A DNA stretch of 35,430 bases, from the UHGV virus genome UHGV-0309502; one strand, written 5' to 3'. Of the stretch, positions 14,441 through 17,131 are shown in pieces (within the stretch, counting starts at the first letter, position 1; each line of letters begins with the position of its first letter). Position numbers and translations under genes: made by a program. The notes beneath the pieces were generated by a model. That model saw nothing but the letters and a program-made list of their open reading frames with translations. It had not been told where the DNA came from and searched no databases. This DNA comes from a virus.

Positions 14441-15993
14441 CAGTGAAATACTACGCCATTCTGACTAATCAGGGCGCGGCACGACTGGCTAACGCGACGA
14501 TGCTCGGCAGTAAGCTGAATCTGACGCGAATGGCCGTTGGTGATGCAAATGGTGTGTTACCAACACCAGACCCTGCACAAACAAAACTGATTAACCAGAA
14601 ACGCATTGCACCGCTGAATCTTCTGAGTGTTGACCCTAACAATCAGAGCCAGATTATTGCGGAGCAAATCATCCCTGAAAGCGAGGGTGGATTCTGGATC
14701 CGTGAGATTGGTCTTTATGATGATAAAGGTGTACTCATTGCGGTGGCAAACTGCCCGGAAACGTACAAACCGCAGTTGCAGGAAGGCAGTGGACGCACCC
14801 AGACTATCCGCATGATTCTGGTTGTCACGAACACCGAAGCCATCACGCTGAAAATCGACCCGTCTGTGGTTCTGGCAACCCGCAAATATGTGGATGATAA
14901 AATCTCAAAGCACGAGCAGTCACGACGTCACCCGGACGCCTCGCTGACCGCAAAAGGCTTTGTTCAACTTAGCAGTGCCACGGACAGTCAATCAGAAACT
15001 GAGGCTGCCACGCCGAAGGCTGTGAAAATCGCGTATGATCTGGCCTGGGGAAAATACACAGCCCAGGATGCAACAACGACCCGTAAAGGGATCGTACAAC
15101 TGAGCAGTGCCACCAACAGCACCTCTGAAACGCTGGCCGCCACACCAAAAGCCGTCAAGGCGGCATACGACCTTGCAGCCGGCAAGGCCCCCGTCAGCCA
15201 CACTCACCCATGGAGTCAGATAACGGGAGTGCCTGCTGCCTCGCTGACGGCAAAAGGCACCGTACAACTGAGCAGTGCCATCAACAGCACGTCTGAAATA
15301 CTGGCCGCCACACCGAAAGCGGTCAAGGATGCATACGATCTGGCAAACGGAAAACAACCGGCAGATGCCACGCTCACTGCTCTGGCAGGACTTGCCACTG
15401 CAGCAGATCGGTTGCCTTATTTTACCGGAGCAGACCGCGCAGCGCTGGCAACCCTTACAGCTATTGGTCGCGCTATTATCGCTAAGGGCAGTATAAAAGA
15501 TGTCCTCAATTACCTTGGTTTGGGGGAAGGCTCTGCATTGCCTGTTGGTGTACCGGTTCCATGGCCCACCGCCACACCGCCAGCAGGCTGGTTACAGTGC
15601 AACGGAGCTACGTTCACCAAAGAACAATATCCTGTTCTGGCCAGAGTCTACCCGACCCTCCGTCTTCCCGATTTACGCGGTGAGTTTATCCGTGGATGGG
15701 ACGACGGGCGCAAGATTGACGAGGGGCGTAAGTTGCTTTCATGGCAGAAAGGTACACTGGTCGGCGGTCATGACGATAACGATTCTGCGCTTGATATCTC
15801 GTACATGAGTAACGGAAATAATATTGACTATGGCGGCGATAAGGTGTTTGCGGGGAATTACCGTAGCGATTATTTGTGGTACGCAATACTGGGTGGAACA
15901 AACAGTCGCGCAAAAGCCGAATTAAACGGAGCATTCTTTAACATAACCCGCCCCCGCAATATCGCGTTTAACTATATCGTGAGGGCGGCGTGA
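14437..15993 (+). CDS. H: tail fibre protein H (constant N-terminal part plus currently attached variable C-terminal cassette)
   Basis: 518 aa; ATGA overlap with I; conserved N-terminus; three tail-fibre repeats; C-terminal cassette lies inside the invertible segment. Confidence 0.85.
   Translation: MTVKYYAILTNQGAARLANATMLGSKLNLTRMAVGDANGVLPTPDPAQTKLINQKRIAPLNLLSVDPNNQSQIIAEQIIPESEGGFWIREIGLYDDKGVLIAVANCPETYKPQLQEGSGRTQTIRMILVVTNTEAITLKIDPSVVLATRKYVDDKISKHEQSRRHPDASLTAKGFVQLSSATDSQSETEAATPKAVKIAYDLAWGKYTAQDATTTRKGIVQLSSATNSTSETLAATPKAVKAAYDLAAGKAPVSHTHPWSQITGVPAASLTAKGTVQLSSAINSTSEILAATPKAVKDAYDLANGKQPADATLTALAGLATAADRLPYFTGADRAALATLTAIGRAIIAKGSIKDVLNYLGLGEGSALPVGVPVPWPTATPPAGWLQCNGATFTKEQYPVLARVYPTLRLPDLRGEFIRGWDDGRKIDEGRKLLSWQKGTLVGGHDDNDSALDISYMSNGNNIDYGGDKVFAGNYRSDYLWYAILGGTNSRAKAELNGAFFNITRPRNIAFNYIVRAA
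14938..15357 (+). repeat. three tandem phage tail-fibre repeats inside H
   Basis: Peptide repeats T[AR]KG.VQLSSA..S.SE..AATPKAVK.AYDLA occur three times; the underlying DNA copies are clearly related. Confidence 0.8.
15503..15528 (-). other. gix/hix/cix-like 26-bp recombination site (left end of invertible segment)
   Basis: Minus-strand reading TTCCCCCAAACC-AA-GGTAATTGAGGA; compare recalled gix TTCCTGTAAACC-GA-GGTTTTGGATAA; inner half-site is identical to that of the right site. Confidence 0.55.
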
Positions 15994-15999
15994 TACCGT

Positions 16000-16614
16000 T
16001 CAACTGGCAAGTGCCAGTGGCGCTTCCGGCCAGCTGATTTCAGGTGCCGTGCTGATATCCAGTGCGTTCAGCTCGTCGATATAATCCAGCACGGCGTTCA
16101 GTTTTGCCGTTTCTTCTGGTGTCAGACTGCGACCAGCACGCAGTTTGAGGTTGATAAGATCGACGGACGCCATCGCCTGTTTCACCCGTTGCTGGCGTTG
16201 CTGTCTGGCAACCTCCAGTTCTGCGGCTCGCTGCCGTTCAGTATCGGTTACCCACGCCTCACCGTTCCAGGTATCCCATGGCGTGGCTGGCTGTTTTGTG
16301 GTGGTGTCCGCCGGGTAATCACCCGGTTGGGTAATCAGAACAGGGTTACCGTTCTCCGTGCTGTATACCGTCTCGCCGCGGTGATCAGGCACATGCTCCC
16401 ACCCGTTCAGCGTGGCAGTCCGGCAAACCACGTAACCCGAAATTGCCTCCGGCGGTGCATCGGCGCACGAATGTGCCGGAGTACCCACCCCAAGGGCGAG
16501 ATACTCCACAGAGGATGAGGTGTATTCCCGGGTTTCCTCGTCATAGTGATATACAGTGATATCGCCCGCTACAGTGGCGATACCGTTTTCATCCAGAACT
16601 GCAGTGTTACTCAT
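16000..16614 (-). CDS. tail fibre assembly chaperone (Tfa family)
   Basis: 204 aa; TAATG-coupled directly downstream of the alternative cassette on the minus strand; typical Tfa C-terminus. Confidence 0.75.
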   Translation of the reverse strand: MSNTAVLDENGIATVAGDITVYHYDEETREYTSSSVEYLALGVGTPAHSCADAPPEAISGYVVCRTATLNGWEHVPDHRGETVYSTENGNPVLITQPGDYPADTTTKQPATPWDTWNGEAWVTDTERQRAAELEVARQQRQQRVKQAMASVDLINLKLRAGRSLTPEETAKLNAVLDYIDELNALDISTAPEISWPEAPLALAS

Positions 16615-17131
16615 TAAACTGCCCTCACAATGTAATTAAGTGCAATGCTACGGGGTCTGACAGTGATACCCTTCGCATACCCGCTTCTGATAGAGGTCAG
16701 AATAGTAGCCTGCATACCATTGTCTGACATTGCCACGACAGGATCGCTGAATGTTGTCCCGTCCGGCATTTTAAAGCTGCCCTCACGAAGGTCTGTAATG
16801 GAATCTTCATTGTTGAATCCCATGCCGACTATCCCCGAGGTTCCCGTAGTGTCCTGGTTATAATAATCCAGCATTGCTGTTCTTAACAGCGTTGCCCCTT
16901 GTGCGGACAGCAACTTACGTCCTGTATCAACTTTGCGCCCGTCGTCCCATCCACGGATAAACTCACCGCGTAAATCGGGAAGACGGAGGGTCGGGTAGGC
17001 TCTGGCCAGAACAGGATATTGTTCTTTTGTAAAGGCGCGCCCGTCGCACTTTAACCAGCCTTCTGGCGGTGTGGCGGTGGGCCACGGAACCGGTACACCA
17101 ACAGGCAATGCAGAGCCTTCCCCCAAACCAA
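16614..17131 (-). CDS. alternative tail-fibre C-terminal cassette (Sv'-like), silent in this orientation
   Basis: Minus-strand frame whose first ~70 codons (GLGEGSALPVGVPVPWPTATPP...DDGRK) nearly duplicate the H segment after the crossover site, then diverges; ORF finder extends it to 17183 but no independent start is expected. Confidence 0.65.

What the first reader, a model, noticed from the sequence alone, without database searches (positions are those of the whole stretch)
15516..17131. Only one tail-fibre chaperone gene in the invertible segment, and it is antisense in the present orientation
Mu and P1 segments carry a chaperone for each fibre variant. Here the single tfa is co-oriented only with the silent alternative cassette, so the currently expressed H variant has no downstream co-transcribed chaperone. 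Either this variant folds without one, the chaperone is supplied in trans, or this orientation gives defective fibres.
Basis: inference. Interest (0 to 1): 0.4.

Follow-up and report, generated by a model that had tools for sequence, protein, structure and literature searches.

The report
One-chaperone tail-fibre inversion switch
The phage's flip-flop tail-fibre switch does carry only one helper (chaperone) gene, and that gene faces backwards in the present state, but this is the normal, conserved layout of a widespread E. coli switch module, not a defect of this phage.

Summary
The 1.6-kb segment (crossover dinucleotides at 15515/16 and 17130/31) holds three things. They are the expressed tip Sv1 (to 15993, +), one tfa (16000-16614, -) and the silent tip Sv2 (16614-17131, -), whose stop overlaps the tfa start. 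No other tfa-like ORF exists in the 35-kb window.

The layout is not peculiar to this phage. It is a Pin/Min-type tail-fibre inversion module found in P88-like and other P2-like prophages and on P1-like plasmids. About 11% of complete E. coli genomes carry this tfa abutting a convergent tip cassette. Relatives have three to six cassettes and still one tfa.

Crossover sites lie only at the 5' end of each cassette. The unit [Sv2, tfa, reversed Sv1] is therefore indivisible, and tfa is antisense whenever Sv1 is expressed.

- Both states occur in sequenced genomes: 95 Sv1-joined and 282 Sv2-joined.
- Sv1-type cassettes show strong purifying selection.
- 35% of collar-type tips across Enterobacterales lack an adjacent tfa.
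- Tfa sequence does not track the tip's variable part.

My best reading (about 0.4) is that Sv1 assembles without a co-transcribed Tfa. The main rival (about 0.3) is that one generic Tfa is supplied independently of orientation. A defective state is disfavoured. This is a new member of a known kind, of modest interest.

The parts
14437..15514 (+). Constant part of tail-fibre gene H (P2 gpH-like), up to the left crossover
   Evidence: ORF 14437-15993. Pfam Phage_tail_fib E=1e-61 and three Phage_fiber_2 repeats.
15503..15528 (.). Left crossover site (12-2-12), central TT at 15515-16
   Evidence: The alignment of the two arms becomes identical from 15515. The inner half TTGGTTTGGGGGAAGG differs by 1 nt from the e14 P-segment repeat quoted in PMC12529663.
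15512..15740 (.). Left arm of the 229-nt inverted repeat. It encodes the conserved collar part shared by both cassettes.
   Evidence: the repeat finder I1, 90% complementary.
15515..15993 (+). Sv1: the currently expressed variable C-terminal cassette of H (collar plus an 83-aa variable part plus RPRNIAFNYIVRAA)
   Evidence: Pfam Collar. T4 gp37 tip 2XGF E=1.3e-14, including the C-terminal NIAFNYIVR motif. The same cassette occurs as a silent 157-aa ORF on 549 contigs.
15994..15999 (.). 6-nt spacer between the convergent stop codons of H-Sv1 and tfa
   Evidence: Sequence read. Spacers of 5-6 nt occur at the same junction in the L019 and L030 modules.
16000..16614 (-). tfa: the only tail-fibre assembly gene. 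It is antisense to H in this orientation.
   Evidence: Pfam Caudo_TAP E=3.5e-28. It is the only Tfa-profile hit in the window. It is 99.5% identical to the L002 Tfa.
16614..17131 (-). Sv2: silent alternative cassette, translationally coupled to tfa (TAATG overlap)
   Evidence: ORF 16614-17183. Pfam Collar. The simulated inversion gives an in-frame 531-aa H-Sv2. That junction is found in 282 genomes.
16906..17134 (.). Right arm of the inverted repeat
17118..17143 (.). Right crossover site, central AA at 17130-31
17165..17182 (.). Perfect TGT-N12-ACA dyad between the segment and the invertase start. This is an untested candidate Ogr box.
   Evidence: The motif count in the window is at chance level. 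The dyad is conserved only in contexts with the MQIGY-type invertase.
17198..17797 (+). Din-family serine DNA invertase (199 aa, MQIGYIRVSTNDQ...)
   Evidence: Pfam Resolvase E=2e-51 and HTH_7.
17787..17816 (.). 12-bp-stem palindrome with T runs, terminator-like in both directions, between the invertase and gpU
   Evidence: Folding energy is -15 to -17 kcal/mol.
17824..18318 (-). gpU, the last gene of the FI-FII-E-T-U late block, which converges on the segment (context)
   Evidence: Pfam Phage_P2_GpU. P88_4B11 has the same layout.

Best explanation
What it is (shown). This is a Pin/Min-type tail-fibre inversion module, with a Din-family serine invertase, sitting in a P88-like (Xuanwuvirus) P2-type phage. 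It takes the place of the classical two-chaperone segment that P88 itself carries.

Each cassette has a crossover site only at its 5' end. The stretch [Sv2, then tfa, then reversed Sv1] is therefore one indivisible unit. Inversion joins either Sv1 or Sv2 to the constant part of H. When Sv2 is joined, tfa follows it in sense and is translationally coupled (TAATG overlap, its own Shine-Dalgarno). When Sv1 is joined, as here, tfa is necessarily antisense.

How it most likely works (inferred). The Sv1-on state is a normal, selected state. The short gp37-like collar tip Sv1 trimerises without a co-transcribed Tfa. Tfa is a class-generic helper that docks on the conserved collar or C-terminal strand. 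It is needed, or kept as a bound cap or adhesin, for the cassette it is coupled to, and is dispensable or merely helpful for the unlinked cassettes. On this reading the switch alternates between a bare tip and a tip made together with Tfa.

The confidence given (0.4) is for the inferred mechanism. The anatomical part I hold at about 0.9.
For: Anatomy.

The layout is the family norm.
- The same Sv1, 6 bp, tfa, Sv2 unit occurs in several P2-like prophages with two different invertases, and on P1-like plasmids.
- Relatives have 3 cassettes with 1 tfa (L002) and 6 cassettes with 1 tfa (L019).
- The 301-nt Sv1/tfa junction probe matched 619 of 5426 complete E. coli genomes, 197 of them at 80% coverage or more.

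Both isomers occur in sequenced genomes: 95 H-Sv1 and 282 H-Sv2. Published work showed all variants of a three-repeat P2-like prophage switch coexisting in one EPEC culture (PMC4272514).

Unlinked cassettes appear functional.
- Window Sv1 against L019_c2 gives pS 0.69-0.79 (saturated) and pN 0.12-0.14.
- The convergent unlinked cassette is intact, and of a different type, in three diverged module families.
- The Arg codon that forms the tfa Shine-Dalgarno is AGG in 53 of 62 linked tips but in only 18 of 38 unlinked tips, Fisher p=8e-5. This suggests the unlinked state is old.

Tips without a Tfa are common.
- 36 of 104 complete collar tips in 79 species-representative loci have no adjacent tfa, and 10 loci have none within 6 kb.
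- In Pluralibacter (L038) and Rahnella (L043), a P2-type H with a collar tip is followed directly by the tail sheath gene.

Precedent: homologous Alteromonas phage fibres differ in chaperone dependence (PMC10579305).
Against: - Sv1-like tips in Erwinia, Serratia and Enterobacter (62-74% identical), and a more distant collar tip in Cedecea (57%), each have their own co-oriented tfa immediately downstream. The class is therefore usually chaperone-associated.
- 63% of collar tips are tfa-linked.
- Every intact E. coli module examined keeps one tfa. The degraded locus L012 has none.
- Tfa identity does not follow the tip's variable part. Mean Tfa N-domain identity is 0.50, 0.50 and 0.47 for variable-part identity bins 0-25%, 25-40% and 40-60%. 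Tfas up to 93% identical are linked to unrelated tips. This fits a generic chaperone that could serve, and might be needed by, all cassettes.
- The tips resemble T4 gp37, whose folding is known to need gp38 or a Tfa-type helper.
- Nothing here measures folding.
Confidence: 0.4

Rival explanations
1. One generic Tfa serves every cassette and is made whatever the orientation. In the Sv1-on state it would come from one of three sources:
- a promoter travelling with or next to the module, for example the TGT-N12-ACA dyad at 17165-17182 firing leftward into Sv2-tfa under the phage's Ogr-like activator;
- read-through of the convergent FI-FII-E-T-U late operon across the invertase gene;
- sibling genome copies that flipped within the same induced cell.
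For: - Tfa sequence is uncoupled from the tip's variable part and correlates better with the collar (r=0.44 against 0.32-0.35).
- Window and L019 Tfas are 72% identical although their linked cassettes are unrelated.
- Sv1-like tips elsewhere have a Tfa.
- Exactly one tfa is kept in every intact E. coli module examined.
- tfa has its own Shine-Dalgarno.
- The window encodes an Ogr/Delta-like activator, and the FI-U block converges on the segment.
- Variants coexist within clonal cultures, so flipping is frequent (PMC4272514).
Against: - No sigma-70-like promoter was found on either strand in 15300-18500.
- TGT-N12-ACA occurs at chance frequency: 4 found against 8.35 expected. It is absent from the Pin/Min-type contexts that carry the same module.
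- The phage's likely late-promoter boxes look different.
- A 12-bp-stem terminator-like palindrome (-15 to -17 kcal/mol) lies between gpU and the invertase.
- In P1-like plasmids and other P2-like prophages nothing converges on the segment.
- It does not explain P2-type loci with no tfa at all.
Confidence: 0.3
2. The Sv1-on orientation is a poor or dead state. Without Tfa the Sv1 fibre misfolds, so particles from Sv1-on cells are fibre-less or weakly infective. On this view Sv1 is a remnant that lost its own tfa.
For: - Orthologous Sv1-like tips have their own tfa, so a loss did occur in the E. coli lineage.
- Window Sv1 still keeps the Shine-Dalgarno-forming AGG codon.
- H-Sv2 junctions outnumber H-Sv1 junctions by 282 to 95.
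Against: - Strong purifying selection acts between two diverged Sv1-type cassettes that both lack a tfa.
- The convergent unlinked cassette is intact in three diverged module families.
- 95 genomes carry the H-Sv1 junction, against 197 that carry the Sv1/tfa junction (two separate searches).
- The 282 count includes modules with other convergent cassettes, and it can reflect which tip infects E. coli.
- Modules with up to six intact cassettes and one tfa would be mostly wasted.
Confidence: 0.15
3. Tfa for Sv1 is supplied in trans by another resident prophage or plasmid of the host, since many E. coli carry several such modules and other tfa genes.
For: The junction queries matched a median of 3 places per genome, up to 10, and the matches include P1-like plasmids. 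The Tfa appears generic.
Against: Late genes of other prophages are normally repressed. A transmissible phage cannot rely on host-specific helpers. The window itself has no other tfa.
Confidence: 0.07
4. The single tfa is a local deletion or an assembly artefact of this window.
For: None beyond the contrast with P88_4B11, Mu and P1.
Against: A 301-nt window spanning the Sv1 3' end, the 6-nt spacer and the tfa 3' end is matched at 80% coverage or more in 197 complete genomes, and up to 100% identical. The same unit occurs in independent phage and plasmid records.
Confidence: 0.01

Closest known systems
Min multiple-inversion region of plasmid p15B and the related Pin/P segment of e14 (Din-family invertases)
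   Same: - The same module (98-99% identical) sits on 92-97 kb P1-like plasmids next to a 190-aa recombinase.
- The crossover half-site TTGGTTTGGGGGAAGG differs by 1 nt from the e14 repeat quoted in PMC12529663.
- Relatives have 3-6 cassettes that can be fused to one constant 5' part. From memory of Sandmeier et al. 1990-92, not readable here, p15B Min offers six alternative 3' ends.
   Different: - This window has only two crossover sites and two cassettes.
- The host replicon is a P88-like P2-type phage.
- The invertase is a 199-aa MQIGY-type protein, not the 190-aa MLIGY Pin/Min type.
- e14's P segment has two tfa genes, tfaP and tfaE (PMC12529663).
- I could not check how many tfa genes p15B Min itself has.
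Mu G segment (Gin) and P1 C segment (Cin)
   Same: A serine invertase lies next to a segment flanked by inverted repeats that lie inside the fibre gene. Inversion swaps the C-terminal receptor-binding part and so changes host range.
   Different: Mu and P1 carry a chaperone for each variant (S-U and S'-U'; established knowledge). Here one tfa is tied to one cassette. The tips here are short collar/gp37-type cassettes.
Escherichia phage P88_4B11 (Xuanwuvirus) and Salmonella phage Fels-2
   Same: - P88 has the same genome plan, including the FI..U block converging on the invertase. The invertase is 81% identical at DNA level.
- Both have an invertible fibre segment.
   Different: Both have two convergent tfa genes, one per variant. 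Their tfa genes are of the short type that matches only the C-terminal part of the Tfa profile built here.
Three-repeat 'shufflon' in a P2-like prophage of EPEC E2348/69 (Goldberg et al. 2014, PMC4272514)
   Same: It has three partly homologous inverted repeats, four isomers and three alternative C-termini of one protein. All variants coexisted in a clonal culture. This matches the three-cassette relatives found here (L002, L005-L007).
   Different: That paper did not address the chaperone count. I did not verify that the EPEC locus is the same module.
T4 gp37 distal tip with gp38, and lambda Stf with Tfa
   Same: Sv1 matches the gp37 tip structure 2XGF in the collar and in the terminal NIAFNYIVR strand. 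Tfa is a Caudo_TAP (lambda Tfa / P2 gpG family) protein.
   Different: The tips here are far shorter. Sv1 and Sv2 lack the His-x-His needle repeats. Dependence on the chaperone is unknown.
Carotovoricin Er invertible tail-fibre fragment (Nguyen et al. 2001; cited in PMC13195805 and PMC4272514)
   Same: An invertase-driven swap of fibre C-termini in a P2-like tail changes the killing spectrum. From memory, the invertible fragment is too short (about 0.8 kb) to hold any tfa, so it would be a functional switch with no chaperone inside. A comparable tfa-free pair of convergent collar cassettes is seen in Dryocola (L055).
   Different: It is a tailocin in a different genus. The paper could not be read here, so the details rest on memory.

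Membership tests
Din-family (Gin/Cin/Pin/Min/Hin) DNA inversion system | Small serine recombinase: N-terminal resolvase catalytic domain plus C-terminal HTH | tested here: met
   Pfam Resolvase E=2.4e-51 and HTH_7 E=1.4e-12 on 17198-17797.
Din-family (Gin/Cin/Pin/Min/Hin) DNA inversion system | Catalytic serine in the N-terminal YxRVST motif | tested here: met
   The translation begins MQIGYIRVSTNDQNTDLQ.
Din-family (Gin/Cin/Pin/Min/Hin) DNA inversion system | Two 26-bp crossover sites in inverted orientation with a 2-bp core, at the constant/variable junction of the target gene | tested here: met
   Sites at 15503-15528 and 17118-17143 with core TT/AA. The inner half-site is 15/16 identical to the e14 repeat.
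Din-family (Gin/Cin/Pin/Min/Hin) DNA inversion system | Fis-dependent recombinational enhancer in the 5' part of the invertase gene | not tested
   I did not search for Fis sites.
Din-family (Gin/Cin/Pin/Min/Hin) DNA inversion system | Both orientations are actually found | tested here: met
   95 genomes have the H-Sv1 junction and 282 have the H-Sv2 junction. 100%-identical examples exist of each. Several isomers are seen in loci L004-L009.
Mu G / P1 C type two-chaperone invertible segment | Each alternative variable part is followed by its own co-oriented tfa (U and U') | tested here: not met
   There is one tfa only. Sv1's stop is 6 nt from the convergent tfa stop.
Min-type multiple inversion module (more than two crossover sites) | Three or more crossover sites and cassettes that can be fused to one constant part | tested here: not met
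   The window has two sites and two cassettes. Close relatives meet the feature: L002 has 3 cassettes and L019 has 6.
Min-type multiple inversion module (more than two crossover sites) | Sequence homology of cassettes and tfa to those on P1/p15B-like plasmids | tested here: met
   15 plasmid records cover at least 80% of the segment; the best-ranked are 97-99.6% identical, others about 94%. The context was read in L024 and L025.
Caudo_TAP tail-fibre assembly proteins (lambda Tfa / P2 gpG / Mu U) | Sequence membership | tested here: met
   PF02413 E=3.5e-28, residues 79-199. The precomputed annotation of identical proteins is Caudo_TAP_N plus Caudo_TAP.
Caudo_TAP tail-fibre assembly proteins (lambda Tfa / P2 gpG / Mu U) | Gene immediately downstream of, and co-oriented with, the fibre tip it serves | tested here: met
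   Met for Sv2, with the TAATG overlap. Not met for Sv1.
Caudo_TAP tail-fibre assembly proteins (lambda Tfa / P2 gpG / Mu U) | Required for trimerisation or folding of the fibre tip | not testable with these tools
   This needs co-expression or genetic tests.
T4 gp37-type collar tip | Collar domain plus a returning C-terminal strand NIAFNYIVR | tested here: met
   2XGF E=1.3e-14. The alignment includes the terminal motif. Pfam Collar hits both cassettes.
T4 gp37-type collar tip | His-x-His iron-binding needle repeats | tested here: not met
   None are present in Sv1 or Sv2. They are present in several other cassettes of related modules.
Fibres with a C-terminal intramolecular chaperone (T5 pb1 / K1F type) | Extra C-terminal autoproteolytic chaperone domain after the receptor-binding part | tested here: not met
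   Sv1 ends at the same conserved ..NYIVRAA as all other cassettes and is shorter than Sv2. Pfam finds only the Collar domain.

The most novel reading that the evidence does not exclude
The single tfa may not be a private chaperone but a shared, class-generic factor whose supply is uncoupled from segment orientation. One candidate route is an activator-dependent promoter just outside the segment (the TGT-N12-ACA dyad at 17165-17182) that fires into whichever cassettes face the invertase. Alternatively, Tfa may stay bound as a second adhesin or cap. The switch would then toggle between a one-component tip (Sv1) and a two-component tip (Sv2 plus Tfa). Either reading would add a new layer of logic to Din-type fibre switches.
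Probability: 0.25. Interest if true: 0.55.

Novelty: new member of a known kind. Interest (0 to 1): 0.35.

Why it matters
Tail-fibre inversion switches are the textbook example of phage host-range bet-hedging. The textbook picture, from Mu and P1, pairs every tip with its own chaperone.

Here a very common E. coli module breaks that rule systematically. It occurs in roughly one complete genome in nine and also on P1-like phage-plasmids. It has one tfa for two to six tips, and one tip can never be co-transcribed with that tfa.

This matters in three ways.
- It matters for annotation: 'phage tail protein' ORFs of about 150-170 aa are silent cassettes.
- It matters for predicting the host range of prophages and tailocins.
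- It matters for engineering chimeric fibres, where one needs to know which tips require a chaperone.

It also gives a clean natural test bed for the open question of what makes a gp37-like tip chaperone-dependent. The same phage carries a linked and an unlinked tip on an identical collar.

Tried and rejected
1. Second tfa. I ran Pfam on 27 window ORFs and a home-built Tfa profile on all six-frame ORFs. There is none.
2. Own promoter. The sigma-70 scan of 15300-18500 found nothing. Inspection of the inverted repeat and the spacer by eye gave nothing convincing.
3. Ogr-box idea. There is a perfect TGT-N12-ACA at 17165-17182, but the motif count in the window is at chance level. The motif is missing from Pin/Min-type contexts, and the phage's own likely late boxes differ. 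I kept it only as a lead.
4. Large-scale inversion of the FI-U block by the invertase. No flanking inverted repeats were found, and the layout is simply that of P88. Rejected.
5. Intramolecular chaperone in Sv1. Rejected, because there is no extra C-terminal domain.
6. Solved structures for Tfa. There was no significant sequence hit.
7. Literature. North et al. 2019, Sandmeier et al. 1990-92 and Nguyen et al. 2001 are not held. Statements about them are from memory and are marked as such.
8. H35/L012, a relative without an annotated tfa, turned out to be a degraded locus.
9. I did not use structure prediction. Monomer models of intertwined trimeric tips would not bear on chaperone dependence, and complexes cannot be submitted.

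
Full report
**The observation**

The window is a P2-type phage genome. Tail-fibre gene H runs 14437-15993 on the + strand. It is 518 aa, with an N-terminal Phage_tail_fib domain, three Phage_fiber_2 repeats and a C-terminal Collar domain.

A 229-nt inverted repeat, 90% complementary, has arms at 15512-15740 and 16906-17134. Aligning the arms shows identity starting at TTGGTTTGGGGGAAGG.

Three reading frames fill the space between them:
- the expressed variable cassette Sv1, with stop TGA at 15991-93;
- after 6 nt, the stop of the only tfa (16000-16614, - strand, 204 aa, Caudo_TAP E=3.5e-28);
- the silent cassette Sv2 (16614-17131, - strand), whose TAA overlaps the tfa ATG (TAATG), with a GAGGG Shine-Dalgarno 7 nt upstream.

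A serine invertase follows at 17198-17797.

No other tfa exists in the window. The segment has no free space. Pfam on 27 ORFs found none. A Tfa profile run on every six-frame ORF of at least 50 aa hit only this gene.

**Is it a peculiarity of this genome?**

It is not. The closest annotated phage, P88_4B11 (Xuanwuvirus), shares the genome plan. That plan includes the FI-FII-E-T-U block lying on the opposite strand and converging on the invertase. P88_4B11, however, has the classical segment with two convergent tfa genes, as does Fels-2.

In this window that segment is replaced by a different module, and the module is very common.
- The Sv1 cassette occurs as a 157-aa 'phage tail protein' ORF on 549 contigs.
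- Its neighbourhoods show the same unit in several P2-like prophages with either a 199-aa or a 190-aa invertase. The unit is Sv1, a 6-nt spacer, the reversed tfa (204 aa) and the reversed Sv2.
- The unit also occurs on 92-97 kb P1-like plasmids.
- An unrelated phage record matches the window from crossover to crossover (15512-17131) at 98.8%, while the flanks differ. The segment therefore moves as a cassette.
- A 301-nt probe across the Sv1/tfa junction matched 619 of 5426 complete E. coli genomes. The match covers at least 80% of the probe in 197 of them.

Relatives have three cassettes with one tfa (L002, L005-L007) or six cassettes with one tfa (L019).

**Geometry**

Crossover sites occur only at the 5' end of each cassette. 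In multi-cassette relatives, the stop codon of an unlinked cassette is followed directly by AAACGTTGGTTT, the next site.

The stretch [linked cassette, tfa, reversed cassette] therefore contains no internal site and is indivisible. Whenever Sv1 is fused to H, tfa is antisense. There is no isomer in which Sv1 has a sense tfa downstream.

This central unit, with a 5-6 nt spacer between convergent stops, recurs in three diverged module families (window, L019, L030). Their Tfa proteins are 57-72% identical. The convergent unlinked cassette is of a different type in each family.

**Does the switch flip, and is Sv1-on tolerated?**

I built the inverted isomer in silico. It gives an in-frame 531-aa H-Sv2.

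Junction-specific searches found H joined to Sv1 in 95 complete genomes and to Sv2 in 282. Examples 100% identical to each junction exist. By comparison, 197 genomes carry the Sv1/tfa junction.

Published work showed that a three-repeat switch in a P2-like prophage of EPEC gives four coexisting isomers and three alternative C-termini within a clonal culture (PMC4272514).

**What kind of tip and chaperone are these?**

Sv1 matches the receptor-binding tip of T4 gp37 (PDB 2XGF, E=1.3e-14). The match covers the collar and the terminal ..NIAFNYIVR strand. All cassettes share the roughly 76-aa collar part, which is the inverted repeat, and the terminal RPRNIAFNYIVRAA. Only the 70-100 residues between differ. 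There is no room for a C-terminal intramolecular chaperone.

Sv1 is not an intrinsically chaperone-free class. Sv1-like tips each have their own co-oriented tfa immediately downstream in three other genera: Erwinia aphidicola (70% identical, homologous through the variable part), Serratia odorifera (a non-invertible context) and Enterobacter hormaechei. A more distant collar tip in Cedecea neteri (57% identical) is also followed by its own tfa. The E. coli lineage has therefore lost the Sv1-side tfa.

**Species-wide sample**

I scanned one genome per species and kept 79 loci. I annotated them with profiles for collar tips, Tfa and invertase.
- Of 104 complete collar tips, 66 are followed directly by a roughly 205-aa Tfa, 36 are not, and 2 lie at contig edges.
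- Ten loci longer than 9 kb have no tfa-like ORF at all.
- In a Pluralibacter genome and in Rahnella laticis, a P2-type H (Phage_tail_fib plus Collar) is followed directly by the tail sheath gene.
- A Sodalis locus shows the same convergent arrangement of H tip and tfa, followed by an invertase, as the window.

**Is Tfa matched to its tip?**

It is not. I compared 49 non-redundant linked tip-Tfa pairs, giving 1176 pairwise comparisons.
- Mean identity of the Tfa N-terminal part is 0.50, 0.50 and 0.47 when the tips' variable parts are 0-25%, 25-40% and 40-60% identical.
- Tfas up to 93% identical are linked to unrelated tips.
- Tfa identity correlates better with the collar (r=0.44) than with the variable part (r=0.32-0.35).

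Tfa thus looks like a class-generic helper acting on conserved parts. Biochemically, the window's Tfa could probably serve Sv1 as well as Sv2.

**Are unlinked cassettes functional?**

Window Sv1 and the Sv1-type cassette of the six-cassette module (L019_c2) both lack their own tfa. They differ at saturated synonymous sites (pS 0.69 overall, 0.79 in the variable part), but pN is only 0.12-0.14. This indicates strong purifying selection.

The Arg codon of the terminal ..IVRAA forms the tfa Shine-Dalgarno. It is AGG in 53 of 62 linked cassettes but in only 18 of 38 unlinked ones (Fisher p=8e-5). The unlinked state is therefore old enough for this constraint to have relaxed. Window Sv1 itself still has AGG.

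Together with the prevalence data, this argues against a dead Sv1-on state.

**Could tfa be expressed in this orientation?**

- No sigma-70-like promoter was found on either strand in 15300-18500.
- The FI..U late block reads toward the segment, but a 12-bp-stem palindrome with T runs (-15 to -17 kcal/mol) sits between gpU and the invertase.
- The phage encodes an Ogr/Delta-like activator (24719-24979).
- A perfect TGT-N12-ACA dyad lies at 17165-17182, between the right crossover site and the invertase start. If it worked like a P2 late-promoter box it could only fire leftward, into Sv2-tfa.
- Against this, the motif occurs at chance frequency. It is conserved only with the MQIGY-type invertase and not in Pin/Min contexts carrying the same module. 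The phage's probable late boxes look different: TCT-N12-ACA followed by ACAAAAGC, at 4125 and 23489.
- In P1-like plasmids and other prophages nothing converges on the segment.

Orientation-independent expression is therefore possible but unsupported.

**Verdict**

What is shown: this is a Pin/Min-type inversion module with an indivisible [Sv2-tfa-Sv1] unit. The single, flipping tfa is the family norm. Both states occur in nature. Unlinked cassettes are conserved by selection.

What is inferred:
- Most likely (about 0.4): Sv1 assembles without a co-transcribed Tfa, and Tfa is required or retained only with its coupled cassette. Homologous fibres are known to differ in chaperone dependence (PMC10579305). 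TfaMu is known to stay bound to its fibre (same paper).
- Main rival (about 0.3): one generic Tfa is needed by all cassettes and is supplied independently of orientation.
- A defective Sv1-on state (about 0.15) and supply by other prophages (about 0.07) are less likely.
- An artefact is excluded.

**Comparison with what is known**

The closest known systems are p15B Min and e14 Pin, Mu G, P1 C, the EPEC prophage shufflon and the carotovoricin switch. This is a new member of that kind. It fails the Mu/P1 criterion of one chaperone per variant. The chaperone logic of the module appears not to have been addressed in the papers I could read.

Noticed in passing
window 9015-10895 (+): A 626-aa ORF with DUF1737, a SASA (sialate O-acetylesterase-like) domain and DUF6645. 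It lies in the late region between the lysis genes and the tail-completion genes R and S. It is a possible carbohydrate-esterase cargo or virion enzyme.
   Followed up: no
window 14953-15353; L002 and L003 H genes: H is 518 aa here but 574 aa in near-identical relatives. The 56-aa difference equals one 168-nt Phage_fiber_2 direct-repeat unit, so shaft length varies by repeat copy number.
   Followed up: partly
window 17824-23409 compared with 23435-24676: The FI-FII-E-T-U block lies on the strand opposite to H and D, unlike P2 but as in P88_4B11. No flanking inverted repeats were found. The D ORF probably starts at 23567 rather than 23435, which leaves a 157-bp divergent control region.
   Followed up: partly
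window 24719-24979; 4125-4150; 23489-23516: There is an Ogr/Delta-like zinc-finger gene. Two similar boxes, TCT-N12-ACA followed by ACAAAAGC, are placed about 55 nt upstream of where leftward transcripts for P/Q and for FI would start. They are likely late-promoter elements.
   Followed up: partly
window 17165-17182: A perfect TGT-N12-ACA dyad lies between the right crossover site and the invertase ATG. It is conserved with the MQIGY-type invertase (window, L002, L003, L009, L019) but absent from Pin/Min-type contexts.
   Followed up: partly
window 15512-17131 compared with L001 (CP025887): A different phage record matches the window exactly from crossover to crossover at 98.8%, while the flanks are unrelated. 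The whole segment seems to be exchanged between replicons at the repeats.
   Followed up: partly
L019, L002, L030 and window cassettes: Within a module, all cassettes share the same sequence variant of the collar/inverted-repeat part, while different modules differ. This indicates concerted evolution (gene conversion) of the repeats.
   Followed up: no
3' ends of collar cassettes in all loci: The Arg codon of the terminal ..IVRAA is AGG in 53 of 62 tfa-linked cassettes, where it forms the tfa Shine-Dalgarno. It is AGG in only 18 of 38 unlinked cassettes (p=8e-5).
   Followed up: yes
window 34407-34808 and 34805-35302: A ParM-like ORF covers only 123 of 158 positions of StbA_N and may be truncated. 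It is followed by a weak Mom-like ORF.
   Followed up: no
window 25000-30000; 26481-27482: The integrase lies in the middle of the window, inside a low-GC stretch (0.39-0.45) with small ORFs of unknown function. The window looks like a permuted complete phage genome rather than a prophage with host flanks.
   Followed up: no
L055 (Dryocola), L038 (Pluralibacter), L043 (Rahnella): L055 has two convergent collar cassettes only 91 nt apart with no tfa between them. L038 and L043 are P2-type clusters in which H is followed directly by the sheath gene. All three are natural cases of collar tips with no nearby tfa.
   Followed up: partly
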